A stretch of 62,589 nucleotides of DNA, counting the filler. It is 8 parts of 8 records of this genome, joined end to end, with 100 filler letters (N's around TTAATTAATTAA, not from the genome) between each part and the next. Parts side by side here need not be neighbours in the genome. Positions count along the whole stretch, not along the records: positions 17,714 to 27,670 come from SRR31156797_42222; 7 more parts are not named here. The stretch is one strand, 5' to 3'. The notes under the pieces were generated by a model, which did not search any database, was not told the origin of the DNA, and worked only from the letters and a program-made list of their open reading frames with translations. Position 1 is the stretch's first letter. Every line of letters starts with the position of its first letter. Of this stretch, positions 13,450 to 37,008 are shown piece after piece. A program made the translations under genes and the position numbers.

Positions 13450-13456
13450 GTGAGCC

Positions 13457-13867
13457 ATGCATGGTTTTGAACCGAAGATCATCGTGTTTTTGTGCAACTG
13501 GTGTTCCTACGAAGGTGCGGATGCCGCAGGGCGAAGCCGGAGAGAATTTCCGTCCCGCAACCTGCGGGAAATCCGGGTCATGTGCAGCGGCGGGGTAGAT
13601 CCCCGATTGGTTCTGGAAGCTTTCGGGATCGGCGCCGACGGGGTTTTGATTCTTGGTTGTGCTCCGGGCGATTGCCATTATAAGATAGGGAATGTTGAGG
13701 CGTTGAAAAGAATCCCATTGCTGGAGGGGATTCTTCAGCAGTACGGCATTAAAAATGAGAGAATGCGGTTTGATTCCGTTTCAGCCGGCGACGGTGAAAA
13801 ATATGCCCGCATTACCGGGGAGATGGTTGAAACGTTGAAGGGATTGGGGCCATTGAACCATGTCTGA
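13457..13867 (+). CDS. mvhD: MvhD [2Fe-2S] subunit
   Basis: FLCNWCSY, RVMCSG and GADGVLILGCAPGDCHY. Confidence 0.92.
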   Translation: MHGFEPKIIVFLCNWCSYEGADAAGRSRREFPSRNLREIRVMCSGGVDPRLVLEAFGIGADGVLILGCAPGDCHYKIGNVEALKRIPLLEGILQQYGIKNERMRFDSVSAGDGEKYARITGEMVETLKGLGPLNHV

Positions 13868-14834: not shown

Positions 14835-16216
14835 CCCGCAGAATTGTCATAGATCCCATGACCCGATTGGAAGGCCATGGGAAAATCCACATACGCCTCG
14901 ATTCCGGGGGCCGGGTGGATCGTGCGTTTTTCCAGATTCCGGACTTCAAGGGGTTTGAGAAGTTCTGCGAGGGGAGGGCGGCGGAGGAGATGCCGACCCT
15001 TACCCAGAAAATATGCGGGGTCTGTCCCACGGCCCACCACATGGCATCCGTAAAGGCGCTGGACGATCTCTTTCATGTGGAACCCACGGATGCGGCAAAA
15101 ATGATAAGGGAGTTGATGCACACGGCTTTTATTTATGAAGACCATCTCCTCCATTTTTTCTATCTCGGGGGGCCGGATTTACTCATCGGTTCCGGTGATA
15201 AGGGGCTCGGTAGAAATATCTTTGGTGTGATCGGTAAACTCGGGGAGAAAATCGGAAAAAAGGTTATTGAAATTCGAAAGAGGGTTCGGGGTCTCAATGC
15301 CCTGGTCAGTGGAAGCCCCCTTTACCCGGTCTGCGGGCTGCCAGGCGGCGTGTCAAAACCGGTATCCGAAAAAGAACGGGCCGGAATAAAGGAGATTGCG
15401 GGGGATGCTCTGGCGTTTGCGCGCCTTTGCCTGAATATTTTTGAAGAAGAGGTGCTTTCGAACCGGGAATATTTTGACCTGATGCATTCCGAGGCATTTT
15501 CCCTAAAAACCTATTACATGGGAATGGTTGACCGGAAAAACCGGATCAGTTTTTACGACGGTGAAATGAGGATTGTCGATCCCGAGGGCGGGGAGTTTGA
15601 AAAATTCGGTGCGGGAGATTATTTAAATCATCTGGAAGAACGGGTGGATGCCTGGAGTTATATGAAGACCCTCTACCTGAAAAGCATCGGATATCATGGC
15701 CTGTGTGATGGAAAAGAGAGCGGGTTGTACAGGGTGGGGCCCCTTGCCAGGTTGAATGCTTCAGAGGGCATGTCCACCCCTCTGGCACAACGGGAATATG
15801 AACGGATGTTTGAAGCATGCGGCGGGAAACCCGTTCACAATACCCTTGTGTATCACTGGGCGCGGCTCATAGAAGTTCTGTTTGCGGCGGAGCGGATGAA
15901 TGAAATTGCTTGCCATGATCAACTGACAGATCCCGGTATCAGAAACATTCCGGCACAGCCCCCATGTGAAGGGGTGGGGATGTGCGAAGCGCCGAGGGGA
16001 ACCCTGATTCATCACTATGAAACGGATGAAGCGGCGATTCTACAAAAGCTTAATCTGCTGGTTGCAACCCAAAACAATGCAGGCGCCATAAGCCTGTCCG
16101 TTCTGAAAGCGGCCCGGGCATTCATCAAAGGGGGAAAGGTTTCGGATTTGATTTTAAATCGCATTGAGATGGCTTATCGGGCATATGACCCGTGTATGGC
16201 CTGTGCAACGCACTGA
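14831..16216 (+). CDS. mvhA: Group 3c [NiFe]-hydrogenase large subunit
   Basis: TRLEGH, L1 ICGVCPTAH, EAPRGTLIHHY and L2 RAYDPCMACATH. Confidence 0.92.
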   Translation: MTRRIVIDPMTRLEGHGKIHIRLDSGGRVDRAFFQIPDFKGFEKFCEGRAAEEMPTLTQKICGVCPTAHHMASVKALDDLFHVEPTDAAKMIRELMHTAFIYEDHLLHFFYLGGPDLLIGSGDKGLGRNIFGVIGKLGEKIGKKVIEIRKRVRGLNALVSGSPLYPVCGLPGGVSKPVSEKERAGIKEIAGDALAFARLCLNIFEEEVLSNREYFDLMHSEAFSLKTYYMGMVDRKNRISFYDGEMRIVDPEGGEFEKFGAGDYLNHLEERVDAWSYMKTLYLKSIGYHGLCDGKESGLYRVGPLARLNASEGMSTPLAQREYERMFEACGGKPVHNTLVYHWARLIEVLFAAERMNEIACHDQLTDPGIRNIPAQPPCEGVGMCEAPRGTLIHHYETDEAAILQKLNLLVATQNNAGAISLSVLKAARAFIKGGKVSDLILNRIEMAYRAYDPCMACATH

Positions 16217-17613: not shown

Positions 17614-17713
17614 NNNNNNNNNNNNNNNNNNNNNNNNNNNNNNNNNNNNNNNNNNNNTTAATTAATTAANNNNNNNNNNNNNNNNNNNNNNNNNNNNNNN
17701 NNNNNNNNNNNNN
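17614..17713. other. Artificial contig spacer
   Basis: N-run + TTAATTAATTAA + N-run. Confidence 0.98.
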
Positions 17714-17893
17714 AACTGTCGGGTTTTCGGCTTTGGAAATCGCATTGAGGGCCCTGAACTCCAGATCCGTCAGATCGAACTTTGAACCCTGCATCTTCCG
17801 ATCTCGGGTACCGGCTCCGACCAGGTTGATGTCGAATATTTCACGTGCCAGGGAAGCAAGTTCTCTCCGGGATTCCGGTGTCGGCATCTTCAA
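17714..17893 (-). CDS. Probable MarR-family regulator, N-terminal part (cut by contig end)
   Basis: FDLTDLEFRALNAISKAENPTV resembles the start of a MarR winged helix. Confidence 0.55.
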
Positions 17894-18444
17894 TGCTCCA
17901 GGGAAAACGAATCAATATCTGCTTTTTCGGATCAGAAAAGGGTTAATCTACAGCATCCATAAATATTTTCAACAAGATAATAATTGACCGGCAGGCAAAA
18001 ACCGGCAGGCAAAACTTCACAGTCTTACAAACCTCATACGTTTACTCCGCTTTTATGCCCCCAAATTGCCCAGAAAAGAATGCAACTCGCCAGACGCATA
18101 TAATGCATTGTTTATCCATTCGAGATGCAGCATCCATTACTCCATCCCGAATTGTATCCAACGCTCAAAAGAAATGAATCCAGAAACAAAGAGACAGTTA
18201 CCAAGCTCCCTGGATTGTCGGATTCTGTTTGAATACAGCCACACCAACATCAGCTTGCAGCATCCAAGCCGCAGCTTATCGGTCGAAAAAAAAGCTTCAC
18301 AAAAAATAATCAAAAAAAATATGCCAGGGAATATGCGAAACCCAAACAGCATTTTTGATATAAAAAACCATTTGCAACAGATGCTATGCAGATTCTGATC
18401 GCAAAAAGAAACACTGTCAGCAATTGTCATTCGAAAAGATTATC

Positions 18445-18472
18445 TTGACTTGGCCGATTCAAATCATAGACT
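18445..18472 (+). promoter_or_regulatory. Sigma70-type promoter
   Basis: TTGACT-N16-TAGACT, 54 nt upstream of the leader ATG. Confidence 0.6.
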
Positions 18473-18526
18473 GATAAGTGTTGAGACTGATAACCCCGGA
18501 GCGGTTCCGGGATAACAGCGGAAAAC

Positions 18527-18709
18527 ATGAACAAGCTTTTGAGTAAGGTCGTAGAAATGTTCAGTACAGGTACAAGTCATACCAACGCTCGTTGCCGATC
18601 GAAGCAGACATGCTTCAAGGTATCGCTAGGCGTACAGTGGCAAGTACCGTTCCGCGCGATTATCCTGGCTGGCCACTACTTCATGGACATTAACCAGCCG
18701 CCCCCGTAG
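18527..18709 (+). CDS. Putative attenuator leader peptide (60 aa) ending QPPP-stop
   Basis: Its last codons and stop form the 5' arm of the antiterminator. Confidence 0.7.
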   Translation: MNKLLSKVVEMFSTGTSHTNARCRSKQTCFKVSLGVQWQVPFRAIILAGHYFMDINQPPP

Positions 18710-18746
18710 GGTTCAGAAAAACGATAAGAGTTTTCAAACCCTGCGG
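18704..18746 (+). promoter_or_regulatory. Antiterminator hairpin
   Basis: CCGTAGGGTT (18704-18713) pairs with AACCCTGCGG (18737-18746); inner GAAAA/TTTTC extends the stem. Confidence 0.75.
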
Positions 18747-18774
18747 AGCAAAACAAAGCGACGCGGGGTTTTTT
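18736..18774 (+). terminator. Attenuator terminator
   Basis: AAACCCTGCG (18736-18745) pairs with CGCGGGGTTT (18762-18771); six-T run ending at 18774; mutually exclusive with the antiterminator. Confidence 0.8.
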
Positions 18775-18852
18775 CGTTAGAGACAGAGAAACGAACCGAA
18801 AACAGGATGCGGGACATCCGGGCGCGGTAGTTGCGCGCCGAACCAAAGAGTC

Positions 18853-19023
18853 ATGAACACAAACAACATCAACCCGAAGTGGACCAACATGATTCCTGCG
18901 GGAATCATTCGCGGCGGAATCCTGGCAGTACCGGAATCTGCACGGGTAGCGACTCTCACACGGATCGTACCGCCGCTATGCCTGCGGAGGCAGGATCCTC
19001 CGCTACAGGATGTACGCGAATGA
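18853..19023 (+). CDS. Small ORF (56 aa) with VPP and RQDPP motifs, not in ORF track
   Basis: MNTNNINPKWTNMIPAGIIRGGILAVPESARVATLTRIVPPLCLRRQDPPLQDVRE; AAAGAG upstream. Confidence 0.45.
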   Translation: MNTNNINPKWTNMIPAGIIRGGILAVPESARVATLTRIVPPLCLRRQDPPLQDVRE

Positions 19024-19430
19024 CACGAGTAAGGGCGAGAGAGCACTTGTGCTTTACGCAAACGGAAACGAAACGGTCGGGGGACGGCCGCAGACGGGAC
19101 AACCAGCTGAGCAGTGCAGAGAGCATGCTGAACGAAATTTCGCGGTCGTTTCCCCGACCTGCAGAAACGAGTCTGGGATGAACAAGAGTGACGGAGAAGA
19201 CATAAACTGGGAATGGAAACATTGGGAGTCTTTCAGTAAGGGCAATGCCCGGAAAGGAGGCCAAATGGAGTAAGGACCACACGACTGGCAGCTGCGAGGT
19301 TTGCCGGAAAGCCCAAACCCCGGTAGCGATACCGGCAAACCTCGCAACTTTTATAAACGGAAATTAGTCAGAAAACGAACAATCGATTGAAACAACAATA
19401 ACGTCAACTTGTATAACAAGGAGAAGGAAA

Positions 19431-19559
19431 ATGAGAAAGGAACTGTATTTCGGACGGACCACCACGACCATTGGTTCACACTACGGAGCGAGAATTGCTG
19501 TCAGGTGCCGTCCATTCTTGAGCGATAGCCACGCTCTGGAACGACCGCCTCCGAATTGA
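19431..19559 (+). CDS. Small ORF (42 aa) ending ERPPPN-stop, not in ORF track
   Basis: MRKELYFGRTTTTIGSHYGARIAVRCRPFLSDSHALERPPPN; strong RBS AAGGAGAAGGAAA in an A-rich context. Confidence 0.6.
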   Translation: MRKELYFGRTTTTIGSHYGARIAVRCRPFLSDSHALERPPPN

Positions 19560-19741
19560 CGCAAAGCCATGGATGGCTGCTGGGACGGGACAGAAGCAAC
19601 GAACGGCGCGATGCGCTGGAATGGGTGTGGAGAGAGAAACACTATTTCCCAATTACTTGGGACCCGAAACGGACGTAGTCCGAAGATGCTACTTGCCTCC
19701 TTTTCGACGAGCGACCCGCACGGGTCGTGTGACCTGTGAGC

Positions 19742-19772
19742 GGCTGGTCACCGGCATTCCCGGTGACCAGCC
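19742..19772. other. Perfect 13-bp hairpin at the end of the small-ORF unit
   Basis: GGCTGGTCACCGG-cattc-CCGGTGACCAGCC; no U-tract, so a terminator role is uncertain. Confidence 0.6.
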
Positions 19773-19865
19773 TCCCTCGCATTCTGGGAGAAGCAAGAAT
19801 CATCTTACCTGTATATTGATCCGTCAGGACGTTTTCATTTCTCAGATACAATCCAGAAGTCCATT

Positions 19866-20945
19866 TTATCTTTTTTTCAACATGATAAGATTGCCATCAC
19901 GACAGCAAGAAACAAGCTCTTCTTCGTCACATGAAGAATCAAGTTCACCTGCTATTAAATGGTGCATGGAGTTTTCTCCACTATAGATCACGTCAGCGTG
20001 CCAGAATCCTTTTTCGTCTTGTGATAGTTGAGTAATGTTTCCTGAATACCCAGTGCAGTACAGTTCCTCCCCCCGAGTATCCTGATCCAGATCTGCAATA
20101 ACAGCTCCACGAATTTTCCCAGTGTCGCGAGCCACAATATCTGATCTCCAGTAGCATCCGTCATGCTGCATAAGTGCCAGTTTGCCATCGTCCCCACCAC
20201 TGAGTATTCGACCGCCTGCAAACGCAATCCGGCTCTGACCAGCAGAATCCGAATACACAACGTCATGACACCAGCCCAGTTTTCCCTTCCAGAGGACGAC
20301 GATCTGCCCATCCGTTCCGCAGACGAGAATCTCGTTGCCTTTTTTCTCCGGGAGAATATCGTCGATGAGAGCGATTTTCAGGCGGCGATTGGCGACATAG
20401 ATGGTTTCTGCGGTCCACTTGTCTTTCTTGAGCCTGAGAATTTCTACTCGATGGTTGAATCCAACAATGATAATTTCTGTTCCCGGATGCTCCTGATCCA
20501 CCTCGCCAATAGCGACTCCGTGAACCGCATGGTTGCTGGTATAGATAGTCTCCGCTTCCCATTTTTTGTGGTCTTTATACAGCATCAATACCTGACCCTG
20601 GCCAGACAGAGATTCCTTGCCCTCCAACATGCCTACGCCAATGAACTCGTTGCCGGGATACCGATTATCCGCATCCCCGACAGCACACATGATCAATTCT
20701 CCTTTTCCCTTGTGAATGCTTGAGGAATTCCATTTCTCTTTTGCTTTGTATGCCAGGAGGATTTCTCCGGCGGAATTCACCGTAACAACCTCATTGCCGT
20801 CGAAAGCCGGATCCAGATCTCCAATTGCGGCACCATTCAGCCCACGTTGGGATTCAAGCAGTACCTTAGCACTCCATTTCTCCTGTTCTGCCAAAACCAA
20901 TGATCCTACGAGCAGAAGTACGATCCCTGAAATCGTGATTCGCAT
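19866..20945 (-). CDS. Secreted FG-GAP/VCBS-like repeat beta-propeller protein
   Basis: Signal peptide; repeated A(I/V)GD(L/A)DxxxxGNE(V/I/F) blades. Confidence 0.7.
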   Translation of the reverse strand: MRITISGIVLLLVGSLVLAEQEKWSAKVLLESQRGLNGAAIGDLDPAFDGNEVVTVNSAGEILLAYKAKEKWNSSSIHKGKGELIMCAVGDADNRYPGNEFIGVGMLEGKESLSGQGQVLMLYKDHKKWEAETIYTSNHAVHGVAIGEVDQEHPGTEIIIVGFNHRVEILRLKKDKWTAETIYVANRRLKIALIDDILPEKKGNEILVCGTDGQIVVLWKGKLGWCHDVVYSDSAGQSRIAFAGGRILSGGDDGKLALMQHDGCYWRSDIVARDTGKIRGAVIADLDQDTRGEELYCTGYSGNITQLSQDEKGFWHADVIYSGENSMHHLIAGELDSSCDEEELVSCCRDGNLIMLKKR

Positions 20946-20963
20946 TGTGGTTTCCTTTCCTGA

Positions 20964-21764
20964 TTATCGAAGAACGGTTGTATTTGCGGCATCGAAAAGC
21001 ATTCGACCGCCGCGGTTGAGTTGAATAACCAGTGCCGATGTAGGCTCAACGTCGATCATCACACCGGAAAAATCCCTTCCATCCTGCCGTACGGAGATCG
21101 ATTGTCCGAGGCCTGTTGCCCGATCCAGCCATGCCTGTCGGATTCTTTCTGATGCGTTGTGCATCGCGATTCCAAGCCAGCGATCACATTCCATGAGAAG
21201 CATTCGCGCCAGGGCAGCACGATCTACCGGCTCTGTACTTTCGATTTCGAGTGATGTGGCTTCGGTCCGTAATGTATCCGGGAAATGAACTCGGTGCTGG
21301 AGGCAGTTGATCCCAATTCCAGCCACGAAGGTTCTTCCCCCCCCAGCTCGCGGGCGGGCTTCTACTAGGATTCCTGCCAGTTTCCTGCCCTGGATCACCA
21401 GATCGTTCGGCCAGCGGATGTCCGCAGAAATTCCGGTTACTTTCCGGATGGCATCACAGGCAGCCACTGCCAGACTCAACCCCAGGAGCCCTCCATCCAG
21501 TTCCCCGGTTTCATCCACAAGTACCATGCTACAGAGAATCGAAGCTCCACGAGGTGATTCCCATTGCCTCGAAAACCGTCCGCGACCGGATGTCTGGTGC
21601 TCTGCAAACAGAATCGTCCCATCTGCGTCCTTCGATTCAGCACACGACCATGCCAGATCATTGGTGCTCATCACCGAATCATAGAGATGGATCGTTCGCC
21701 CGATCCTGTCCGGTTGCCATCCGGCAAGCAGAGATTCAGTCTGTAATGGTCCATGCATCGCCAT
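20964..21764 (-). CDS. birA: Biotin--[acetyl-CoA carboxylase] ligase
   Basis: STND, QTSGRGR, RWPNDL and KLAGILVE; no N-terminal HTH; start approximate. Confidence 0.9.
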   Translation of the reverse strand: MAMHGPLQTESLLAGWQPDRIGRTIHLYDSVMSTNDLAWSCAESKDADGTILFAEHQTSGRGRFSRQWESPRGASILCSMVLVDETGELDGGLLGLSLAVAACDAIRKVTGISADIRWPNDLVIQGRKLAGILVEARPRAGGGRTFVAGIGINCLQHRVHFPDTLRTEATSLEIESTEPVDRAALARMLLMECDRWLGIAMHNASERIRQAWLDRATGLGQSISVRQDGRDFSGVMIDVEPTSALVIQLNRGGRMLFDAANTTVLR

Positions 21765-21926
21765 CCCTTGAGAATACACGAAACGCAGTGTTGCGTGAAT
21801 CCTTCTCTTATCACGGAGTGACACACTGGAGAAGCTGCAGGATTCCAGAAGCACTTTCAGGGGACAAAAAAACCTCATGGGCAAAACCATGAGGTTGATT
21901 TCTCGTTGCATTATACCTGATAGCGT

Positions 21927-23438
21927 TTACTTTTTCTTTTCCTCACTGTCGGTACTCGAGGATTCAGATTCTTCCATTTCATCCGGTTCGAGTTCCCTAC
22001 TGAGAATTTCCGTCAGGCTGCCCGTCAGCATGTTGGTTGCTGCCAGGACCGTATGATTCTTAATCATCTTTTTTGAAATTTTGATCGGTCCTTTCATATC
22101 CTTCCTGAAGATAGCAACGCGATCATTCACACGGATCCTGACTCCCTGGCAAACCCGGTCATTCACAAGGACATAAGGAGATTGACCATCAGGCCCAACG
22201 CTTGTCGCCTCAATCTGCTGGGCGAGCTTTTCGTCAGCTTTCTTGATCTCCAGCTCCAGGCTATCTGCCTGGAACATCATTTCGGTTGCCTTTTCTTTTT
22301 GTTCGGTACTCAGCCTTTTGGCGTTCGCGAGAAGAGGAGCAACCGTTTCGCGAATGCGTGTAATCGCAGTTCTCTTTTTCTTAGACTCTTCCGCCTGCTG
22401 TGCGAGTTCGCGATACAAATGCACGGGAACTCCTACCTCAATATTGGTCGCAACACCAGCATCACTTCCGAAGACTTTTGCCTCTATTGCATGCTGAGCA
22501 TACACTTTTCCACCAATAATCGAGCCTAAGGGGATGCTGACGCTTCCACCCGAATGAATGGAGCTGTTGAGGATTTCACGATCAATGATAATGCTGCTTT
22601 TGCTTTTCAGGTTCGCCTCTACGCAGAATCGAACCGTAATTTCCTTGCCAGCGTGAACAAAGCCTTTTCCATGCCCGAGGATTCCTCCCCTGACCCGGAC
22701 CTCATCTGCAGCTTCCACCTCTGCCGCCTCAATAGCTCCACCGACAGTCAATGACTTTTCGGTTACGACCTTAAAGAGATCTTTAATATTTCGCCGAACG
22801 ACCAGATCCGAAGGGACATCCAGGTTTCCTGTTTCGTAATCGACATCGCCACTGATCTCAATCACATCCCGAACACTGACGGATTGTTTTCCTTGAATCA
22901 CGAGCCCGGGAGTCGTGGCTTTCACCGTTTTCCCGTCTTCAGCCATTTCGACATTTTCGCCGATTTCGGTTTCAATCGGATCAGTTGGGTAGGGAATTTC
23001 CGCACCATGCACGTCTCGTCCAGGCACAGAGGGTTCCGGTGCGGATATCGTGCCGATGGAATCCCCGTCTTCAACAACGGCAATACTGGTAGAAGCACGG
23101 AAATCGACGGATCCTTCTTCCTCATCCGAGCCACCACTGGTCTGAATCAGGTTCGGCGCGAGGGAAAAGAATCCATCTTTTCCTGGCTGAGGAGCAGTGC
23201 CTTTGGCAACCAGGAAACTCTGTAGTTGAATTTCCTTGGCCTTCAGCGCTTCGCAATATTTCACTGCGCGCGCTTTCACGTGATTCGTGATTTCAATTTT
23301 GGACTCTTTGAGTGCCTTGACTACCATCTCCAGTGTGACCTGCTGGGGATCCGCCTGGCGCGCGAGGGCAATCTGAGCAGACAATTTGTCCTGAGAAATC
23401 CTGACAGAAAAAACTGATTCTGTTGCCGTAGTAGTCAT
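21927..23438 (-). CDS. DUF342/FapA-family protein
   Basis: PGKDG, VDFR, GRDVHG, GDVDYETGNL and beta-helix repeats. Confidence 0.8.
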   Translation of the reverse strand: MTTTATESVFSVRISQDKLSAQIALARQADPQQVTLEMVVKALKESKIEITNHVKARAVKYCEALKAKEIQLQSFLVAKGTAPQPGKDGFFSLAPNLIQTSGGSDEEEGSVDFRASTSIAVVEDGDSIGTISAPEPSVPGRDVHGAEIPYPTDPIETEIGENVEMAEDGKTVKATTPGLVIQGKQSVSVRDVIEISGDVDYETGNLDVPSDLVVRRNIKDLFKVVTEKSLTVGGAIEAAEVEAADEVRVRGGILGHGKGFVHAGKEITVRFCVEANLKSKSSIIIDREILNSSIHSGGSVSIPLGSIIGGKVYAQHAIEAKVFGSDAGVATNIEVGVPVHLYRELAQQAEESKKKRTAITRIRETVAPLLANAKRLSTEQKEKATEMMFQADSLELEIKKADEKLAQQIEATSVGPDGQSPYVLVNDRVCQGVRIRVNDRVAIFRKDMKGPIKISKKMIKNHTVLAATNMLTGSLTEILSRELEPDEMEESESSSTDSEEKKK

Positions 23439-23477
23439 TTTTTCTCCCGAACCCTGAAGGAGAAATCATCGACAGGC

Positions 23478-23846
23478 TCAAGCGTTGAGTTTCGCCATCG
23501 TCTGATCGATTTTCTCCGACAGTGTTTCACCGGTAAACGGCTTGACTACATAGTTATTGACACCTGCCTGGATCGCTTCGATAACGCGCGATTTTTCGGC
23601 TTCGGTCGTGCACATAATGATGGGCGTGTCTTTGTCCATCTCACGAATTTTTCGAACGAACGTAATTCCATCCATGTTTGGCATATTCCAGTCCACCAGC
23701 ATGAGTTCCGGTTTTTCCTGGTTGTAGCTGGCAAGAGCTTCAACACCATCACCGGCTTCCATGATTTCGGTGTGGCCGATCTCCGCCAGAACATTTTTCT
23801 GGATGTTCCGGATCGTTCTTGAGTCATCAACCAGAAGAATTTTCAT
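23478..23846 (-). CDS. cheY: CheY-like response regulator
   Basis: LVDDS, DWNMPNMDG and YVVKPFT in a single domain. Confidence 0.88.
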   Translation of the reverse strand: MKILLVDDSRTIRNIQKNVLAEIGHTEIMEAGDGVEALASYNQEKPELMLVDWNMPNMDGITFVRKIREMDKDTPIIMCTTEAEKSRVIEAIQAGVNNYVVKPFTGETLSEKIDQTMAKLNA

Positions 23847-24346
23847 ACCGAAGCTCCTGTAGCGGCAACCTGATCAGACGTTGCAGCGGTTTTCGTTTCC
23901 ATACCCACTTCCACATACAGTGGTCCACAGTCGGTCTCGCATGGAATAACAATTCGTGGTGTTTGTTTCGACTGAGACACCATATGTTCTTTCCCGATAA
24001 TCACGCTTGGAAGCGAGATTGCGATATTCATTCCGTGGAATTCCTTCTTGGCGTTTCCAGCAACCATGTTGGCCAATTCACCAATTGCATCAGCGAAATC
24101 AGCATGCGATTCGTCAATCTCAATACCCGCAAAGGTCGATGCCGCTTTGGTTGCAACCTCAAGCGGAAAGCTCAATACAACGCATCCAGCCGCATCTCCC
24201 GAAAAGCCGATCACACCCGAGACATCCGCACTTGCACACTGATCATTTTTGACATAGGGCTTCCCGACACGAACCTCTGTCTGAACCATTGTGACGAATA
24301 CACGCTTCACTGAAGCGATAAAAGGATTAATGAACTTAACATCCAT
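23843..24346 (-). CDS. cheX: Chemotaxis phosphatase CheX
   Basis: FINPFI, DVSGVIGFSG and DAIGELANMVAG. Confidence 0.9.
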   Translation of the reverse strand: MDVKFINPFIASVKRVFVTMVQTEVRVGKPYVKNDQCASADVSGVIGFSGDAAGCVVLSFPLEVATKAASTFAGIEIDESHADFADAIGELANMVAGNAKKEFHGMNIAISLPSVIIGKEHMVSQSKQTPRIVIPCETDCGPLYVEVGMETKTAATSDQVAATGASV

Positions 24347-24820
24347 ATTCGTGTGTCCTCCGAATAGCCTGTTCCTTTACTCCAGCCCAAATCCGGGCCC
24401 TAGCCAGTTCCTGTTTCAATTCGTTCATCGGACATTTTTCCACTCTGGTTTAGAGCGGAGAATCAGGCATGGGCAGAAATACGGGTATAGAGCTGTTTTT
24501 CGGACTTTGCAGTGGTTTCAATTCAAAGACACAATTCCCGTTTTTTCTCAAAACGGATCATGTAAAGAGTGCCAGAAGCAAGCAAAACTCGTCAAAAACC
24601 GCATTTTCAACCATAAAAAAGGTGTTTTCGCGATACCGGTTATAACGATTGGTTTCTTCCAGAGAGCCATCCAATCAGAGCCGATATGCTCCTCTGGCCA
24701 GTGGCTCCAGTTGCATTCCTGGCTGTGTTTGACTCGCTTTTCCTGTGACCGACACGACCTGTCTCATTGCCAGAATTACCGGAAACCCCCTTAAAAACAG
24801 CAAATTCGGCAAAATTTGTC

Positions 24821-24849
24821 TTGCGGGGATTGCAAGGAAGCCCTAGAAT
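24821..24849 (+). promoter_or_regulatory. Sigma70-type promoter of the histone gene
   Basis: TTGCGG-N17-TAGAAT. Confidence 0.5.
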
Positions 24850-24933
24850 TCGCGATCAACCGGAGCAATGGAGGCTTCGGTTAAGCGTCACGGTCTGTTT
24901 TAGAAACGGTTATTGAATCAGGAGAAACACTCA

Positions 24934-25176
24934 ATGGCCAAGAAAAAGAAAGCTGCAAAGAAAAAAACAAAAAAGAGCTGCAAGAGCAAAAAGTGTGCAA
25001 ATCGGGAAGTCCTGGTTGTCGCAAGCAAGGTGAAGGCTTACATGAAAGCCAAGAACATGAATACCTCTGCCGATGCGATTCAGGCTCTGTCCGATAAGGT
25101 ATACTGCCTGCTGGACTGCGCAGCCGAGCGTACCAACGCGAACAACCGCAAGACCGTCAAGCCGCAGGACGTTTAA
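24934..25176 (+). CDS. Bacterial histone-fold protein with Lys-rich N-terminal tail (80 aa)
   Basis: EVLVVASKVK, MNTS and RKTVKPQD (RxTxxxxD histone-fold signature); RBS AGGAGA before ATG24934. Confidence 0.88.
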   Translation: MAKKKKAAKKKTKKSCKSKKCANREVLVVASKVKAYMKAKNMNTSADAIQALSDKVYCLLDCAAERTNANNRKTVKPQDV

Positions 25177-25195
25177 TCCACGGCCAATTGACGAA

Positions 25196-25232
25196 AACAG
25201 GCGGGCATCCGTTCCACGGATACCCGCCTGTT
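25196..25232. terminator. Terminator between the histone gene and hutH
   Basis: AACAGGCGGG-c-ATCCGT/ACGGAT-a-CCCGCCTGTT followed by T-rich sequence. Confidence 0.8.
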
Positions 25233-25269
25233 CTACTTTTTACTTTCAACCACCTCAATCTCCAGTGAA

Positions 25270-26820
25270 TCAATGCAGGTCCCCAACAGCCTCTTCAGCC
25301 GCCTCCACAACTTGCTGCGAACGAAGAAGTGACAACGATCGACGTATATCCTCACCGAAAAGACGGTCATGATCGGCATAGCTGATTTTCCTCCTGATGG
25401 CCGAATGAACCGCTTCTATCGCTTTTCCCGACTTCATTGGTTTGCGGAAATCAAGTGCCTGAGCAGCACACATCTGCTCTATCGCCAGAACGGTTTCCGT
25501 ATTCTCCATAACCCGCCAGGCTTTCGTTGCACCATTGGCCCCCATGCTGACATGATCTTCCTGGCCCAGCGACGTTGGAATCGAATCAACCGAAGATGGT
25601 GTCGCAAGCTGCTTGTTCTGGCTGACGAGTGCTGCTGCCGTATACTGCGGCAACATGAACCCACTGTTCAGTCCCGTATCCTGCATAAGCAGGCTCGGAA
25701 GACCAGCATGTCCACTGAGAAGCAGATAGATCCTCCGCTCGGAAATATTCGCCAGTTCAGCCATAGCGATCGAAAGATAATCCAGAACAAGTGCCAATGG
25801 CTGACCGTGGAAGTTCCCGCCACTGATCACGTTTTCCTTATCCAGAACGACCGGGTTATCAGTAACGGCATTCACATCCGTCTGAATCACAGCTGCGATA
25901 TGGCGAACAGCATCCCGTGACGCACCATGAACCTGGGGAACACATCTCAGGGAATACGGATCCTGCACTCGGGAACACTGCTGGTGAGACGCATTGATTT
26001 CACTGTCCTCCAGGAGTCGGCGGACATTTTCTGCAGTTTCGATCGCCCCGGCATGAGGCCTGACCTGGTGCAATCCATCGTGATACGGTCGAACACTGCC
26101 AGCATAACCGTCCAGTGAAGCCGCTGCGATCACATCCGCATGCTTCAACAGACGCTTTGCACGGACTACGAGAGCCGCCCCATAGGAGGACATGAACTGC
26201 GTCCCATTGATCAGCGCGAGCCCCTCTTTCGGCCCCAGCTTGATCGGCTGGATTCCTGCTCGTTGCAGTCCCACCGAAGCATCCACTTCTTTCCCGTCCA
26301 CCAGTACCTTACCTCGCCCGAGAATTGGCAAAACCATGTGCGCCAGAGGGGCGAGATCTCCACTTGCGCCGAGCGAACCTTGCGTCGGGATCACGGGGAG
26401 CACGTCCGCATTCAACAAAGCGGTCAATGACTCAACCGGCCTGCGACTCACACCGCTGACCCCCTGCCCTAGAGCATGAATTTTGAACAACATCAGCCAA
26501 CGAACCAATTCGGAGGGCATGTCTGGTCCTACACCTACTGCATGCGACAGGATCAGGTTTTCCTGAAGTTCCTCAAGCTGCTGATCAGAAATACGTTCAC
26601 TGCAAAGGCTGCCAAAACCTGTATTGAGACCGTAGACGGTATCTCCACGCTCAATTATCTCTCGCACATTCGCACAGGATTTATCGATTCGTTTCCACAT
26701 TTCATCCGAAACGGTAACCTTCAACGGTTTTCCATATGCTTTATCCAGCCATTCGTATCCGATTGAAGTTCCATCCAGTGTGATAGAGACGGGAGTCTGT
26801 TTTGTCTGATCTGTCATCAT
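25270..26820 (-). CDS. hutH: Histidine ammonia-lyase
   Basis: YGLNTGFG, GASGDLAPL (MIO), QDPYSLRC, GGNFHG and QEDHVSMG; start near 26820/26817. Confidence 0.93.
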   Translation of the reverse strand: MMTDQTKQTPVSITLDGTSIGYEWLDKAYGKPLKVTVSDEMWKRIDKSCANVREIIERGDTVYGLNTGFGSLCSERISDQQLEELQENLILSHAVGVGPDMPSELVRWLMLFKIHALGQGVSGVSRRPVESLTALLNADVLPVIPTQGSLGASGDLAPLAHMVLPILGRGKVLVDGKEVDASVGLQRAGIQPIKLGPKEGLALINGTQFMSSYGAALVVRAKRLLKHADVIAAASLDGYAGSVRPYHDGLHQVRPHAGAIETAENVRRLLEDSEINASHQQCSRVQDPYSLRCVPQVHGASRDAVRHIAAVIQTDVNAVTDNPVVLDKENVISGGNFHGQPLALVLDYLSIAMAELANISERRIYLLLSGHAGLPSLLMQDTGLNSGFMLPQYTAAALVSQNKQLATPSSVDSIPTSLGQEDHVSMGANGATKAWRVMENTETVLAIEQMCAAQALDFRKPMKSGKAIEAVHSAIRRKISYADHDRLFGEDIRRSLSLLRSQQVVEAAEEAVGDLH

Positions 26821-26896
26821 ATTCCTCATCACAAAGCTGATACTGATTGCGACATCTTTACTGAGTGGTACACTCCTCAGCAAGAGGGATTATCGT

Positions 26897-27670
26897 ATGC
26901 AGGAAACGATTATTATGCAAAGAGCCACAACATTATCAAAATACGTCTTTATTCTGATCGCATGTGCGTTTTTCTCAACGGGCTTGACGAGATCGTCACT
27001 GGCCCAACCAGCGACCACACAACCAGCCGAGCCAGAAGTTCACACCTCTTCGAAGGTATCCGAATCGCTGGATCGCTCCACTCCACGACATACCATTGAG
27101 TCGTTTCTTGTTGCAATGGACGAGTTCCAGCAGGGGAAAACAGAACGAACAGCTGACCTTATGGCTTGCCTGGATCTGTCCGGACTGCCTTCAGACCTGA
27201 GCAGCGAAGCGAAGCATCAGAAGGTCCGCATGATCGCGACTACTCTTTCAAAATACCTGGAGAATCTTTTTCAACAGGATGGAATAAGTCTTGCCGAAAT
27301 CCCCAACCCTGAAGAAGACCATCTAGCCATTGGAGAAACAGATGCTCATCCAGGACTGGAGATGGTTCGTAACCAGGCGGGAAACTGGGTGTTTTCCTGG
27401 AAATCACTGGAAAACCCAAAAGAACTCATCGCTGCCAAACCCGTTCCGGAAAAGGATCTGGTTCACACTGCAGATGATGTCGGCTCCAATGCTGACGACA
27501 CACCAACCGAATTCCCCAAAGAAGAGAAGAAAGCTGACCAGAAAGAACCAGAAGAGACAACAGTAGATAAAGAAATACCACAGCAATATCGGTCCCCCAG
27601 GGCAACCCTAAGAACGTTTCGAGACGCGATGCTTGCCCAGGATCTGAATCTTGCTTCGGAGTGCATGGAT
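26897..27670 (+). CDS. Exported N-terminal region of a probable large MscS-family channel (3' truncated)
   Basis: Signal peptide; repeated (S/T)PRxT(I/L)x(S/T)F...CLDLS and WVFS motifs. Confidence 0.55.
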
Positions 27671-27770
27671 NNNNNNNNNNNNNNNNNNNNNNNNNNNNNN
27701 NNNNNNNNNNNNNNTTAATTAATTAANNNNNNNNNNNNNNNNNNNNNNNNNNNNNNNNNNNNNNNNNNNN
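27671..27770. other. Artificial contig spacer
   Basis: N-run + TTAATTAATTAA + N-run. Confidence 0.98.
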
Positions 27771-33315: not shown

Positions 33316-33415
33316 NNNNNNNNNNNNNNNNNNNNNNNNNNNNNNNNNNNNNNNNNNNNTTAATTAATTAANNNNNNNNNNNNNNNNNNNNNNNNNNNNN
33401 NNNNNNNNNNNNNNN
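33316..33415. other. Artificial contig spacer
   Basis: N-run + TTAATTAATTAA + N-run. Confidence 0.98.
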
Positions 33416-33492
33416 AGATGTACAGAATACAATGAGTGCAAGAATGAGTGTTTCCATAAGTAATTATCCATAAAGGTGATCACTCTTCTGTA

Positions 33493-34197
33493 TCACTTCA
33501 CCTTTACATACTTTTCCTTGAATCGGCTGATCTCTTCTTTCCCGCCCACAACAGCAACGATATCTCCTTCTTGAATTATAATAGAAGACTCTATGTCAGT
33601 AATGGGTTTGCCGCGTCTCTCGATGCCAATAATAGTGCATCCGAATCTGTTGCGCAGGTCGATGTCCGCAATGGATTTGTTCGCAAGGTCCTTTTCTCCG
33701 CTGACTGTGTGTTTCTCGATATCTATGCCTTCATACAGCATAATATCCTCGTTCAGCTTACTGCATGAAGCAGCAAGGCAGGAGGATGTCATCTTTGCAA
33801 GCATCTGGCCGGCAACTATTGGCAGTGCTGCAACATAGTCAGCTCCGGCTTTGTATATCTTATCAATGGATCTGTATGAATTTGCTCTGGCTATGATGGT
33901 GGACTTTGGATTAAGTCCTCTTGCAATAAGTGTGGCGAACATTACATCCGTATCATCATTAAGGCATACGATAACCGTGGAGGCAGTCGGAACCCCTGCC
34001 TCTATGAGTATCTCTTCATCCGTTGCATTCCCAATAACAAAGTCTTGGTCTGCATTCTCAAAGCTCTGTTCATTAGAATCTACTACCGAGAATCTGATAT
34101 TAGTGTATTTGAGGGTCTCCACAACCCTTCTCCCCACATCTCCGCATCCGAGTACAACCAGATCACCCATTATTCTCTCAGTTTCCATTAAACTCAC
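33493..34197 (-). CDS. Stand-alone RCK (TrkA-N/TrkA-C) protein
   Basis: VLGCGDVG, GNATDE and KIYKAGADYV. Confidence 0.85.
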   Translation of the reverse strand: MSLMETERIMGDLVVLGCGDVGRRVVETLKYTNIRFSVVDSNEQSFENADQDFVIGNATDEEILIEAGVPTASTVIVCLNDDTDVMFATLIARGLNPKSTIIARANSYRSIDKIYKAGADYVAALPIVAGQMLAKMTSSCLAASCSKLNEDIMLYEGIDIEKHTVSGEKDLANKSIADIDLRNRFGCTIIGIERRGKPITDIESSIIIQEGDIVAVVGGKEEISRFKEKYVKVK

Positions 34198-35210
34198 TCC
34201 GTGTATTGTGTCAGCTTTTTCAGGAGAGATAGTTGCTCCGTGGAACCAATTGCAAGCAGAACGGAATTGTCTTTTATGACATCATCAGGTTTGATGAAGA
34301 AGGTAAGACTTCCTCCTTTCCACATACCTACAACATTGGAACCAGTCTTTTCCCTAATGGCTGCATTTTTCATGCTTTTGCCTATCAGGGGACTTTTCGG
34401 GTATATGGGCAGTTCCACGATGCTCACTCCTTCAAAGAACTCGGTTGCTCCGGTTAACCTGTTGACAAAAGGATCGGCAGCTTTCCTCCCAATAAACCTT
34501 CCAAACATCTCCTTTGGGGAGACAACACTGGTAGCACCGGCATATTTAAGGTACTTCTTATTGGACCTGTCCTCTACTATGGCAATTATATTAAGCTCGC
34601 TGCTGATATTTCGGGCTGTAAGGATGATATTTGCATTCATTTCATCCGAGCGGTTTGCGATCAGGAACTGTGCCTCTTTGATATTTGCAGAGTTAAGTGT
34701 CTCTTCTTCATACACTTCACCGAAGATAGTATGAATGTTCTTTTTGAGCATATCCCTTACAAATTCCGTATCATCCTCTATCAGGATGTAGGGTACATCA
34801 TTCTCCTTCAACTCGTCGATTAATGTCTCTATAAGCTTGTTGTAGCCACAGATTATTATATGGCCTCTGAGTTTTTTCGGGGCTCTGGTCGGTATGTTGG
34901 AATGGATCATTTTTTCCATCCAGGGTATGATGAGGAGGGTGAAGAAAACTCCGAATACAAGAGGGATTCCAGATAACTGTACAAGTACTGCGAATATCTT
35001 CCCGATATCTGATGTTACTATAATATCTCCGTATCCTACGGTTGTGAGGGTGGAGATTACCCAGTAGAACGCATCAACAAGGTTTGCATGATCTACCTGT
35101 CCTTCATGGTACATTATCCTTATGAAAAAAAGCATGTAGAACAGGATGATCGCAAGAGCTCCCATTACGGTTCTCAGCAATGTCTTATGCCAGAGATGCT
35201 TTATTTTCAT
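34194..35210 (-). CDS. 2-TM potassium channel with RCK domain
   Basis: TTVGYGD selectivity filter; HIIICGY. Confidence 0.92.
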   Translation of the reverse strand: MKIKHLWHKTLLRTVMGALAIILFYMLFFIRIMYHEGQVDHANLVDAFYWVISTLTTVGYGDIIVTSDIGKIFAVLVQLSGIPLVFGVFFTLLIIPWMEKMIHSNIPTRAPKKLRGHIIICGYNKLIETLIDELKENDVPYILIEDDTEFVRDMLKKNIHTIFGEVYEEETLNSANIKEAQFLIANRSDEMNANIILTARNISSELNIIAIVEDRSNKKYLKYAGATSVVSPKEMFGRFIGRKAADPFVNRLTGATEFFEGVSIVELPIYPKSPLIGKSMKNAAIREKTGSNVVGMWKGGSLTFFIKPDDVIKDNSVLLAIGSTEQLSLLKKLTQYTE

Positions 35211-35256
35211 TTAGGTCACCACTTTTATTCGTTCATGCGTCGTGTTGGAGGACGAT

Positions 35257-37008
35257 TCAGAATCCATGAACAATATATGGTCCGAATATCATGAACAGGA
35301 ATGACAGGAGTATCAGCATTGCAAATGAAGCTGCAATCAGTGCTGATATGTGCTCTGCTTTCTCCTCATCGTTTACGATCCTGTTTATGAAACCGTTCAT
35401 ATAATCCCTGAACACGTGTCCGCCGTCAAGGGGAACTGCAGGCAGGCAATTGAAGAGTCCCACATAAAAGTTAAGCCAGCCGATCCACAGCAGGGCATCT
35501 GCAAGCCAGAATACTCCCATTCCGAAAGGCTCTGCCCAACCCACAGGTTCATAGAATGGTGCAAGAGTTCCGCTAAAGCCAAGGAATCCTTCTCCTGCAA
35601 AACCTATTATAGGCAGTCCCAGAAGAATTATCCAGCCTCCCAGACCCTTAAGCATTTGTGGTATGCTCTTAAAGAGGTCAAGGTATGCAGTGGCAGGGAA
35701 CTCCCCGACAGATATTCCAAGGGATGTTGCGACCTGTCCTTCAAAGTTAGTAACAATTCCAAGGAATCCCTTTGTTTCAACATCAGGATGTTGTGCCAGG
35801 GTTACATTGTATTCTAAATATTCTTCACCATCTTCTGATCTGGCTTCAACAAAAACTTCCTGGTCTGGCAAAGTTGAATTCATTATACTATGGAAATCAG
35901 TGTATGAACGGATAGGATTTCCGTCAATATAGAGTATGCTCGTACCAGCTTCAAGTCCTGCCTCAGATGCAGGAGAATTGTCTACTACGCTTTGTATGCT
36001 TATTCCCGAAGGCTCAATGTTTGTATCGATAACTCTGGTTTCATAGATTGATACGACCTGATCAGAGGCAGCATATACGGTAACTTTCGAATCAGTTTCC
36101 AGTCCGTCCAGGTACTCCAGCATGTCGTTGACACTACTAATTTGTGTGTTATCGATCTGCGTTATGACCATATCCTCCCTGATACCGGCTTCATAGGCAG
36201 GACTGCCTTCTGTAACTTCTACAATCACTGTATCACTAAGTGGTGCCATTGCACCCAGTACCGGTCCAAACAGCAGGCCAAATGCAATAAGCGCAACTAC
36301 GAAATTAGCCATCACACCGGCTGCAAGGATACGTGCCCTTTGTTTTCTGGTTGCTATCTTCTCATCGGTTTTTTTGATTACTTTCTTTTCTTCCTCACCG
36401 ATGATAATTCCCAGCCTGCGGTCTCCATAAGGATCATTCTGCTCATCGAGTTTTTCTTCCTGCTTTCCGAAGAGTTCCTCTTCATCAGGTTCTGCAAATC
36501 CTCCGATTGGAACTACTGCAAGTAATATTCCCATGGATTTTACTCTGATGTCTTCAACGCGGCAGAGTATGGCATGTGAGAATTCATGTACTACCAGGGT
36601 TACAACAAGTGCGATAACTCCCCAAGTAAGGGGAATAAATTCATTAACACCCGGGATCAAAAAGATGTTTCTTGCTTCATTAAATTTTCCCGGCTCAGGC
36701 AATGAGTTCTCACCTATTGAGCTTAGCATGGCAATGTCAGATAAAATGACCACCAGAAACATTGCCACCATACCAACAAACATCAGCCTGATGCCTATGT
36801 CGGCGTAGATGCGCCATGCTTTCCTTGGAATTGCAAGCTTGTCCAGAAGATTAAGCCCGTGTGTGGTTCTAATCATCAGGATTGGTCCGTAAGTACTGAT
36901 GTTGTATTTTTTCAATATCCCTTTTCTTTCCAGCCCGATTACAGCCAGCCAGTAAAGCAAAAAGAGTGCTAATGCAATATTTGTTCCGTCCAAAAAAACT
37001 CTCCGCAT
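35257..37008 (-). CDS. Site-2 (M50) membrane metalloprotease with PDZ domains
   Basis: HEFSH and NCLPAVPLDGGH; two PDZ segments. Confidence 0.92.
   Translation of the reverse strand: MRRVFLDGTNIALALFLLYWLAVIGLERKGILKKYNISTYGPILMIRTTHGLNLLDKLAIPRKAWRIYADIGIRLMFVGMVAMFLVVILSDIAMLSSIGENSLPEPGKFNEARNIFLIPGVNEFIPLTWGVIALVVTLVVHEFSHAILCRVEDIRVKSMGILLAVVPIGGFAEPDEEELFGKQEEKLDEQNDPYGDRRLGIIIGEEEKKVIKKTDEKIATRKQRARILAAGVMANFVVALIAFGLLFGPVLGAMAPLSDTVIVEVTEGSPAYEAGIREDMVITQIDNTQISSVNDMLEYLDGLETDSKVTVYAASDQVVSIYETRVIDTNIEPSGISIQSVVDNSPASEAGLEAGTSILYIDGNPIRSYTDFHSIMNSTLPDQEVFVEARSEDGEEYLEYNVTLAQHPDVETKGFLGIVTNFEGQVATSLGISVGEFPATAYLDLFKSIPQMLKGLGGWIILLGLPIIGFAGEGFLGFSGTLAPFYEPVGWAEPFGMGVFWLADALLWIGWLNFYVGLFNCLPAVPLDGGHVFRDYMNGFINRIVNDEEKAEHISALIAASFAMLILLSFLFMIFGPYIVHGF

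What the first reader, a model, noticed from the sequence alone, without database searches (positions are those of the whole stretch)
24934..25176. Bacterial histone with a lysine-rich N-terminal tail
Seen: an 80-aa monocistronic gene with its own promoter, RBS and terminator. The core EVLVVASKVK..MNTS..RKTVKPQD is preceded by MAKKKKAAKKKTKKSCKSKKC, with 12 Lys in the first 20 residues; the protein has four Cys. Known: RxTxxxxD is the histone-fold signature, and the core resembles, from my recollection, the short Bdellovibrio Bd0055 and Leptospira histones; Bd0055 has no such tail. Inference: a bacterial chromatin protein whose tail could be modified or aid compaction, with Cys pairs possibly binding metal or sensing redox. 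Tailed prokaryotic histones have been noticed computationally but are little characterised.
Basis: partly seen in the sequence, partly recalled or inferred. Interest (0 to 1): 0.75.

Follow-up and report, generated by a model that had tools for sequence, protein, structure and literature searches.

The report
Lysine-tailed face-to-face bacterial histone gene
This small stand-alone gene encodes a genuine bacterial histone with a floppy lysine-rich front tail, but it belongs to an already described histone family of Planctomycetota in which such tails are common, so it is a clean example and not a new kind of protein.

Summary
Window 24934-25176 (+) is an 80-codon gene with 12 Lys in its first 20 residues, four Cys and an RxTxxxxD motif. 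The core is a histone fold. It matches the Leptospira perolatii histone HLp (E 3.5e-15), Bdellovibrio HBb/Bd0055 (E about 3e-6) and archaeal HTkC. The AlphaFold2 model superposes on HLp at 1.0 A. It carries the residues that mark the tetramer-forming "face-to-face" (FtF) class (R66, N70, R72, T74, D79, chain ending one residue after D79). Bd0055 lacks two of these, so it is HLp-like, not Bd0055-like. The tail is translated: no in-frame start codon exists before Val33, inside helix 1. It is typical of the family: all 120 listed homologues carry a Lys/Ala-rich tail of 6-36 residues. Schwab et al. [quoted passage not shown] This scan has met the same kind at least seven times on other DNA. The Cys idea is weak: Cys58 is a common family residue, and Cys62 is Ser in a roughly 95% identical relative. 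Tail-base Cys pairs do co-occur with Cys pairs on helix 2 in a few lineages. Verdict: new member of a known kind.

The parts
24821..24849 (+). Weak promoter-like site (TTGCGG, 17-nt spacer, TAGAAT), 8 of 12 consensus positions. Inferred only.
   Evidence: Read by eye. The sigma-70 scan of 24300-25400 found 0 sites, so this is a guess, not a finding.
24920..24924 (+). Shine-Dalgarno AGGAG, 9 nt upstream of the ATG.
   Evidence: In 6 of 6 related loci examined, the start that gives the MAK-type N-terminus is preceded by a purine-rich stretch.
24934..25176 (+). Histone gene, 80 codons plus stop.
24934..25005 (+). Disordered Lys/Ala-rich N-terminal tail, residues 1-24 (12 Lys, 1 Arg, no acidic residue, net +13). 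Cys16 (24979-24981) and Cys21 (24994-24996) lie at its base.
   Evidence: pLDDT below 50 for residues 1-20.
25006..25173 (+). Histone-fold core, residues 25-80. Helix 1 spans 30-39 and helix 2 spans 46-69. Helix 3 is cut to a single turn at the C-terminus.
   Evidence: AlphaFold2 blocks over residues 31-80 average pLDDT 90-94. Foldseek gives HLp TM 0.92 and rmsd 1.0 A over 56 residues.
25129..25170 (+). FtF signature R66-x3-N70-x-R72-x-T74-x4-D79. It comprises the tetramer contacts, the RD clamp and the L2 DNA-contact threonine.
   Evidence: Alignment to HLp, mapped onto HLp R49, N53, R55, D62 (PMC12701072 section 7) and onto HMM positions 48, 52, 54, 56, 61 (PMC11390915 section 7). In alignment A1, R66, R72 and D79 are invariant, and N70 and T74 are at least 90% conserved.
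25105..25119 (+). Cys58 and Cys62, one helical turn apart on helix 2.
   Evidence: Cys58 occurs in 69 of 121 and Cys62 in 18 of 121 close family members. Cys62 is Ser in the related contig of run X2.
25196..25248 (+). Intrinsic-terminator-like hairpin (25196-25232) and T-rich run (25233-25248). It lies between the two convergent genes and may act on both.
   Evidence: -27.5 kcal/mol, z = -4.81, and 1 of 200 shuffles folds as well.

Best explanation
The gene encodes a nucleoid (chromatin) protein of the alpha3-truncated, face-to-face (FtF) histone family, from an uncultured Planctomycetota bacterium, probably of the Phycisphaerae. Shown here: the core folds as a histone fold nearly identical to HLp. 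Inferred from HLp and HTkC: two chains pair through their antiparallel helix 2. Two such dimers then close into a ring-shaped tetramer. The contacts are R66, N70 and R72 with the C-terminal carboxylate one residue after D79. About 60 bp of DNA wraps around the ring. DNA contacts are A30-S31-K32, K34 and K38 on helix 1, T44 in loop 1 and T74 in loop 2. Each chain adds a disordered 24-residue tail of net charge +13, which leaves the fold at the DNA-binding face. Inferred: the four tails (about +52 per tetramer) neutralise phosphate charge. This would raise non-specific DNA affinity and could bridge or condense neighbouring DNA, as the basic tails of eukaryotic histones and H1-like tails of other bacterial nucleoid proteins do. 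The gene is a single, self-contained transcription unit. Four related genomes each hold one such histone gene together with HU/IHF-type genes.
For: Sequence: HLp (9qt0) E 3.5e-15 over query residues 21-79, HBb E about 3e-6, HTkC E 0.023. With the family profile the values are 8e-27, 6e-16 and 5e-12. Fold: the top 9 Foldseek matches are HLp, HBb and HTkC, with TM 0.85-0.93 and rmsd 0.7-1.3 A, on a model whose core averages pLDDT above 90. FtF residues: R66, N70, R72, T74 and D79 have exactly the spacing of HMM positions 48, 52, 54, 56 and 61. HBb has Ser and Asp at the R66 and N70 positions. The HLp tetramer residues R49, N53 and R55 are all kept. The arginine equivalent to R66 is required for tetramers in HTkC (bioRxiv 10.64898/2025.12.06.692711, section 5; the equivalence is inferred through the HMM numbering). 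The chain ends one residue after D79, as in all 121 of 121 close members. HLp DNA-contact residues are identical at A13, S14, K15, K17, K21, T27 and T57 (7 of 9), while G29 and T56 differ. Tail: 121 of 121 sequences (query plus 120 listed of 974 hits) carry a tail of 6-36 residues, median 16. On average it is 44% Lys and 0.6% acidic, and 113 of 121 begin MAK. Among 105 analysable singlet representatives of the wider family, 30 carry a basic tail of at least 8 residues. No ATG, GTG or TTG lies in frame between codon 1 and Val33 (read). Purifying selection is shown. Named homologues are from Planctomycetes and Phycisphaerae MAGs. The flanking ammonia-lyase is 62% identical to that of a Phycisphaerae MAG. 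Four of 4 related genomes have exactly one histone match and 1-3 HU/IHF (PF00216) matches.
Against: No experiment exists for any Planctomycetota member, so DNA binding, tetramer formation and the tail's role are all inferred. Three HLp tetramer-network residues differ: S52 is Ala, T61 is Gln and F63 is Val. Pfam histone models score below their cut-offs (CBFD_NFYB_HMF 16.5 against 21.4 bits). Expression is not shown. HU/IHF genes in relatives mean the histone need not be the main nucleoid protein.
Confidence: 0.85

Rival explanations
1. It is a dimeric, DNA-bending histone of the Bdellovibrio HBb/Bd0055 type (the 'bacterial dimer' class) rather than a ring tetramer.
For: HBb is a clear sequence and fold match (E 2.5e-6; TM about 0.9). 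Three of the six HLp tetramer-network residues are not identical.
Against: HLp is the far better match. The two residues that PMC11390915 says the dimer class lacks (HMM R48 and N52) are present here as R66 and N70. R66 is invariant and N70 at least 90% conserved in the 150-sequence family alignment.
Confidence: 0.08
2. The two Cys at the tail base (16, 21) and the two Cys on helix 2 (58, 62) form a metal site or disulfide switch. This would pin or release the tail according to metal or redox state.
For: In 331 singlet family sequences, 11 of 13 with two or more Cys in the last 12 tail residues also have Cys one turn apart on helix 2 (54+58 or 58+62). The figure is 24 of 318 for the rest (9 of 11 against 17 of 213). 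The 13 fall into about five lineages by my reading of their sequences. At least three of those (this protein, the clade with a Cys-Ser-Cys tail base, and P0207) carry the helix-2 pair. From general knowledge of the histone fold, the start of helix 1 lies over the middle of helix 2, so the four Cys could be close.
Against: The counts are not corrected for shared ancestry, so the Fisher values overstate the case. Cys58 is simply common in the family (69 of 121). Helix-2 pairs occur without tail Cys in 24 sequences. Within the Cys-Ser-Cys clade some members have only one tail Cys. The roughly 95% identical contig in run X2 has Ser for Cys62 while showing no listed change in the other three Cys codons. 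No model coordinates were available to measure distances.
Confidence: 0.1
3. It is a histone-fold protein with another role, for example RNA binding or a specific regulator, and not a general DNA-packaging protein.
For: PMC11390915 itself cautions that not all prokaryotic histone-fold proteins need be global genome organisers (discussion passage seen). Relatives also carry HU/IHF genes.
Against: The HLp DNA-contact residues are largely conserved. The gene is single-copy and stand-alone in 4 of 4 relatives. It is linked to no partner gene on its contig.
Confidence: 0.04

Closest known systems
HLp, FtF histone of Leptospira perolatii (PDB 9QT0, 9QT1, 9QT2; PMC12701072)
   Same: About 52% identical over the fold, rmsd 1.0 A. 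It shares the truncated helix 3, the RD clamp, the tetramer residues R49, N53 and R55, and most DNA-contact residues. It is likewise a single stand-alone gene.
   Different: HLp has only a short N-terminal stretch; its first 6-7 residues are not seen in the crystals. This protein has a 24-residue tail of net charge +13. Leptospira lacks HU, whereas relatives of this organism have HU/IHF genes. Tetramer-network residues S52, T61 and F63 are Ala, Gln and Val here.
HTkC, archaeal FtF histone of Thermococcus kodakarensis (PDB 9F2C; PMC11390915; bioRxiv 10.64898/2025.12.06.692711)
   Same: The same short fold (TM 0.87). It has the same arginine-to-C-terminal-carboxylate tetramer lock. It wraps DNA around a ring (abstract and section 5).
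   Different: About 33% identity. It has no tail, and it is archaeal.
HBb / Bd0055, 'bacterial dimer' histone of Bdellovibrio bacteriovorus (PDB 8CMP, 8FVX, 9EZZ, 9F0E; PMC10627809, PMC11317129)
   Same: The alpha3-truncated fold, about 46% identity and the RKT motif.
   Different: HBb lacks the two FtF interface residues (Ser and Asp at the R66 and N70 positions). It acts as a dimer and has no tail.
Tailed bacterial FtF histones catalogued by Schwab et al. 2024 (PMC11390915, section 7 and its Supplementary Fig. 13, which I could not see)
   Same: Same family, same phylum list (Planctomycetota named) and the same statement that the tails are common and mostly positively charged.
   Different: None in kind. 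This is one more member. Its tail is longer than the median of close relatives (24 against 16 residues) and it carries two Cys at the tail base.
H1-like Lys/Ala-rich tails on other bacterial nucleoid proteins (mycobacterial HupB, Deinococcus HU, chlamydial Hc1). Recalled from general knowledge, not checked in any call.
   Same: Low-complexity Lys/Ala-rich disordered extensions attached to a small DNA-binding fold.
   Different: The folds are different (HU or H1-like), with no homology to this protein.

Membership tests
Histone fold, alpha3-truncated ('alpha3') histones | Helix-loop-long helix-loop fold, with helix 3 reduced to 3-4 residues. | tested here: met
   The AlphaFold2 model has helices 30-39 and 46-69 and no third helix of 4 or more residues. 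The chain ends one residue after D79. Foldseek's top hits are HLp, HBb and HTkC.
Histone fold, alpha3-truncated ('alpha3') histones | RxTxxxxD motif in loop 2 and helix 3. | tested here: met
   R72-K-T74-V-K-P-Q-D79. R72 and D79 are invariant in 150 sequences.
Face-to-face (FtF) histones | Conserved interface residues at HMM positions 48 (Arg) and 52 (Asn). | tested here: met
   R66 and N70 have the same spacing to R72, T74 and D79 as HMM positions 48, 52, 54, 56 and 61. They equal HLp R49 and N53.
Face-to-face (FtF) histones | A free C-terminal carboxylate directly after the motif Asp, as partner of the interface Arg. | tested here: met
   The stop codon follows V80. The core length is 56 in 121 of 121 sequences. 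The role of the carboxylate is described.
Face-to-face (FtF) histones | Forms a closed ring tetramer. The family is defined by this predicted or solved tetramer. | not testable with these tools
   It needs SEC-MALS, a crystal structure or a multimer model with coordinates. The one attempt is described under Tried and rejected.
Bacterial dimer histones (HBb/Bd0055 class) | Sequence clusters with Bd0055 and lacks R48 and N52. | tested here: not met
   Both residues are present. The E-value to HLp is 3.5e-15 against 2.5e-6 to HBb, and 8e-27 against 6e-16 with the profile.
ZZ histones | N-terminal ZZ-type zinc finger (a C4 and a C2H2 site) before the histone fold. | tested here: not met
   The tail has two Cys, no His and 24 residues. 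True ZZ forms of 200-270 residues appear among distant representatives.
Pfam PF00808 CBFD_NFYB_HMF | Score over the gathering cut-off. | tested here: not met
   16.5 bits against a cut-off of 21.4. DUF1931 scores 13.6 against 21.8. The models are insensitive to this short class.
Nucleoid-associated (chromatin) protein | Abundant and binds DNA genome-wide. | not testable with these tools
   No RNA or protein data were available for this organism.

The most novel reading that the evidence does not exclude
In a few Planctomycetota lineages, this one included, a Cys pair at the base of the lysine tail and a Cys pair one turn apart in the middle of helix 2 would form a metal or disulfide latch. The latch would hold the tail against the histone core or release it onto DNA. 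DNA compaction by a bacterial histone would then respond to redox or metal state.
Probability: 0.1. Interest if true: 0.55.

Novelty: new member of a known kind. Interest (0 to 1): 0.25.

Why it matters
Bacterial histones were recognised only recently, and only HBb and HLp have been studied at the bench. The Planctomycetota clade is large: 974 hits at 90% clustering and 395 clusters at 50%. Lysine tails are nearly universal in it, and none has been tested. In four full-text searches I found no paper with an experiment on a tailed bacterial histone. A member like this is a convenient test of what a histone tail does in a cell that has no nucleosomes. As a finding, however, it adds one more example to a kind already catalogued in print and already met repeatedly in this scan.

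Tried and rejected
1. Tetramer model. One complex-prediction job was run with four copies of residues 14-80 and four zinc ions riding along. It was accepted and collected. It gave no verdict: score 0.08 against a mark of 0.32. The tool did not use my alignment, and no contacts or coordinates were returned. It says nothing for or against tetramer formation or a zinc site.

2. Expression. The look-up of sequencing runs listed no RNA holder. Run X2 is labelled metatranscriptomic but flagged as probably DNA. It is kept as contigs, so no claim on expression is made.

3. No whole genome is held for the window. Paralogues and HU genes could therefore be sought only in four related genomes.

4. The Rfam search of 24200-25400 found nothing at E up to 1.

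5. The sigma-70 promoter scan found 0 sites, and the terminator scan missed the hairpin that folding found.

6. The 167-codon ORF on the + strand at 24291-24794, in the long upstream gap, has no Pfam match. I treated it as non-coding without further test.

7. A search with P0113, the one homologue with a similar Cys-x4-Cys tail base, found no further sequence with that motif among the 120 listed of 216 hits. The motif is therefore not a conserved clade feature.

8. I first suspected an odd organism, because an FtsZ gene is in the window and four Planctomycetota relatives gave no FtsZ match. I rejected this: that FtsZ sits on a different, archaeal contig.

9. The sequence look-up in earlier findings returned nothing.

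10. Synteny around the homologues in L001 and L003 was listed but not analysed further.

Full report
WHAT IS THERE. Window 24934-25176 (+) is an open frame of 80 codons plus a stop. The first 20 residues contain 12 Lys. Cys lie at positions 16, 21, 58 and 62, and residues 72-79 fit RxTxxxxD. An AGGAG lies 9 nt upstream of the ATG. The upstream neighbour is a CheX / CheY-like receiver / FapA / biotin-lipoate ligase gene row on the minus strand. The downstream neighbour is an aromatic (histidine) ammonia-lyase, also on the minus strand. The gene therefore stands alone between a divergent and a convergent neighbour. After the stop codon, a 16-bp hairpin (25196-25232) followed by a T-rich run folds at -27.5 kcal/mol, with z = -4.8 against shuffles. 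A sigma-70 consensus scan found no promoter. By eye I see only a weak TTGCGG-17-TAGAAT at 24821-24849.

THE WINDOW IS A COMPOSITE. It consists of eight contigs joined by a spacer of 44 N, a 12-base all-frame stop sequence and 44 N. The histone lies on the piece 17714-27670 (GC 0.50). Only genes on that piece are physically linked to it. Another piece (33416-42228, GC 0.42) carries an FtsZ that is 95% identical to Methanolobus FtsZ. The bin therefore mixes a bacterium and an archaeon. The histone contig is bacterial and probably from Planctomycetota/Phycisphaerae. The named homologues of the histone come from such MAGs. The adjacent ammonia-lyase is 62% identical to that of a Phycisphaerae MAG.

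THE GENE IS REAL AND THE TAIL IS TRANSLATED. Three observations support this.
- There is no in-frame ATG, GTG or TTG between codon 1 and Val33 (read). Val33 lies inside helix 1, after the conserved Ala-Ser-Lys DNA-contact motif. Any later start would destroy the fold.
- The upstream TTG at 24913 would place the Shine-Dalgarno inside the coding sequence. It would also add seven residues that none of the 120 listed homologues shares.
- A 268-nt contig of a related strain (run X2, covering 24883-25149) differs at 10 listed places. Eight are synonymous third-position changes. The other two fall in one codon and turn Cys62 into Ser (codons read). This is the pattern of a protein-coding gene under purifying selection.

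In 6 of 6 related loci examined, the frame contains an ATG that gives an N-terminus beginning Met-Ala-Lys, preceded by a purine-rich stretch.

IT IS A HISTONE FOLD OF THE FACE-TO-FACE CLASS. Pfam's histone models score below their cut-offs. A search of the Protein Data Bank sequences gives:
- HLp of Leptospira perolatii (9QT0) at E 3.5e-15.
- HBb/Bd0055 of Bdellovibrio at about 3e-6.
- HTkC of Thermococcus at 0.023.

With a profile of 150 family members the values are 8e-27, 6e-16 and 5e-12. An AlphaFold2 model built on that alignment has blocks averaging pLDDT 90-94 over residues 31-80 and below 50 for residues 1-20. Its helices span 30-39 and 46-69, with no full third helix. The nine best Foldseek matches in the PDB are chains of HLp, HBb and HTkC. 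HLp matches at TM 0.92 and rmsd 1.0 A.

Schwab et al. 2024 (PMC11390915, section 7 read) define the FtF class by a ring tetramer. Its conserved residues sit at HMM positions 48, 52, 54, 56 and 61. They state that the Bd0055-type "bacterial dimers" lack positions 48 and 52 (passage). Here R66, N70, R72, T74 and D79 have exactly that spacing. In the alignment, Bd0055 has Ser and Asp where this protein has R66 and N70. In HLp the same residues (R49, N53, R55) make the dimer-dimer contacts (PMC12701072 section 7). In HTkC the equivalent arginine binds the C-terminal carboxylate of the opposing dimer, and changing it to Ala gives dimers (bioRxiv 10.64898/2025.12.06.692711, section 5). This protein, like all 121 of 121 close relatives, ends exactly one residue after the motif Asp.

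Seven of the nine HLp residues that contact DNA in the crystals are identical here. I therefore place the protein in the FtF class and not in the Bd0055 class. The tetramer itself was not shown: the one multimer job gave no verdict (see Tried and rejected).

THE TAIL IS A FAMILY TRAIT. The word-index search found 974 homologues at E up to 1e-3 among 1001 candidates. In the query plus the 120 listed:
- Every sequence (121 of 121) has an N-terminal tail of 6-36 residues, median 16.
- On average the tail is 44% Lys and 24% Ala, with 0.6% acidic residues.
- 113 of 121 begin Met-Ala-Lys.

The tail here (24 residues, 12 Lys, net +13) is longer than the median but not extreme. The exhaustive search of 50% representatives found 395 clusters at E up to 1e-3. 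Of the 150 listed, 105 carry the FtF-type signature. I analysed the 105 singlets with exactly one RxTxxxxD motif and enough sequence before it; the other 45 rows were left out. Of those 105 singlets:
- 30 have a basic tail of at least 8 residues.
- 25 have fewer than 8 residues before the core.
- 50 have other extensions, several of which look like start codons called too far upstream of an internal Met-Ala-Lys.

[quoted passage not shown] Hocher et al. 2023 (PMC10627809, passages) note the persistence of histone genes in Planctomycetota. The earlier notes of this scan list at least seven follow-ups on other genomes with the same conclusion. I reached my reading before seeing them (it is recorded).

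LIKELY MECHANISM. By homology with HLp and HTkC, two chains form a handshake dimer. Two dimers then close face to face into a ring, and about 60 bp of DNA wraps around it. The four tails leave the fold just before helix 1, on the DNA-binding face. They add about +52 charges per tetramer. The most economical reading is non-specific charge neutralisation, which would raise affinity and could bridge or condense DNA. Four related genomes each have one histone gene and one to three HU/IHF genes. Unlike in Leptospira, the histone here need not be the only major nucleoid protein.

THE CYSTEINES. Cys58 is an ordinary family residue (69 of 121), while Cys62 is rarer (18 of 121). Tail Cys are rare: 110 of 121 sequences have none.

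There is a pattern for a link. Among 331 singlet sequences, 11 of 13 with two or more Cys in the last 12 tail residues also have two Cys one helical turn apart on helix 2. The figure is 24 of 318 for the others. The 13 fall into about five lineages by my reading of their sequences, so the nominal Fisher value (2.5e-10) is inflated.

Several observations count against an obligatory four-Cys site:
- Some members of the Cys-Ser-Cys clade have only one tail Cys.
- Helix-2 pairs occur without tail Cys.
- The one other sequence with a similar Cys-x4-Cys tail base has no relatives that share it.
- The roughly 95% identical contig in X2 has Ser at position 62.

I rate a metal or redox latch at about 10%.

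VERDICT. The novelty is low. This is a new member of a known, catalogued and experimentally untested clade.

Noticed in passing
window 6809-6908, 17614-17713, 27671-27770, 33316-33415, 42229-42328, 48826-48925, 55081-55180: The window is eight contigs joined by a spacer (44 N, a 12-base all-frame stop sequence, 44 N). GC ranges from 0.36 to 0.55 between the pieces. Gene neighbourhood arguments are valid only within a piece.
   Followed up: yes
window 37464-38687 (+), on piece 33416-42228: An FtsZ gene 95% identical to Methanolobus FtsZ. It gave no match in four Planctomycetota relatives. This piece is archaeal (Methanosarcinaceae), so the bin is mixed.
   Followed up: partly
window 55183-61621 (+), last piece: A row of contractile-injection-system or phage-tail-like genes: sheath, T4 gp19-like tube, CIS tube, gpD-like baseplate hub and gpV-like spike.
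   Followed up: no
window 49136-54402 (+): Two MttB-family methyltransferase genes, a BCCT betaine/choline transporter and a DMSP-lyase-like cupin lie in a row. This suggests use of methylated amines or DMSP. The organism of this piece was not determined.
   Followed up: no
window 24347-24933: An unusually long gap of about 590 nt lies between the divergent CheX gene and the histone gene. There is no Rfam match. Its only long ORF (24291-24794, +, 167 codons) has no Pfam match.
   Followed up: partly
protein P0264 (distant family representative): An FtF-signature histone with a strongly acidic N-terminal tail (net -15 over 37 residues), the opposite of the usual basic tail.
   Followed up: no
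proteins P0131, P0180, P0187, P0190, P0217, P0225, P0268: Distant representatives of 200-270 residues with a Cys-rich N-terminal domain, most followed by two histone folds. They look like the ZZ-type histones of PMC11390915 in doublet form.
   Followed up: no
window 11374-16216 (+): Genes for an Fe-S/FAD oxidoreductase, an MvhD/FlpD-like subunit and the small and large subunits of a NiFe hydrogenase lie in a row. This points to an anaerobic hydrogen-metabolising organism for that piece.
   Followed up: no
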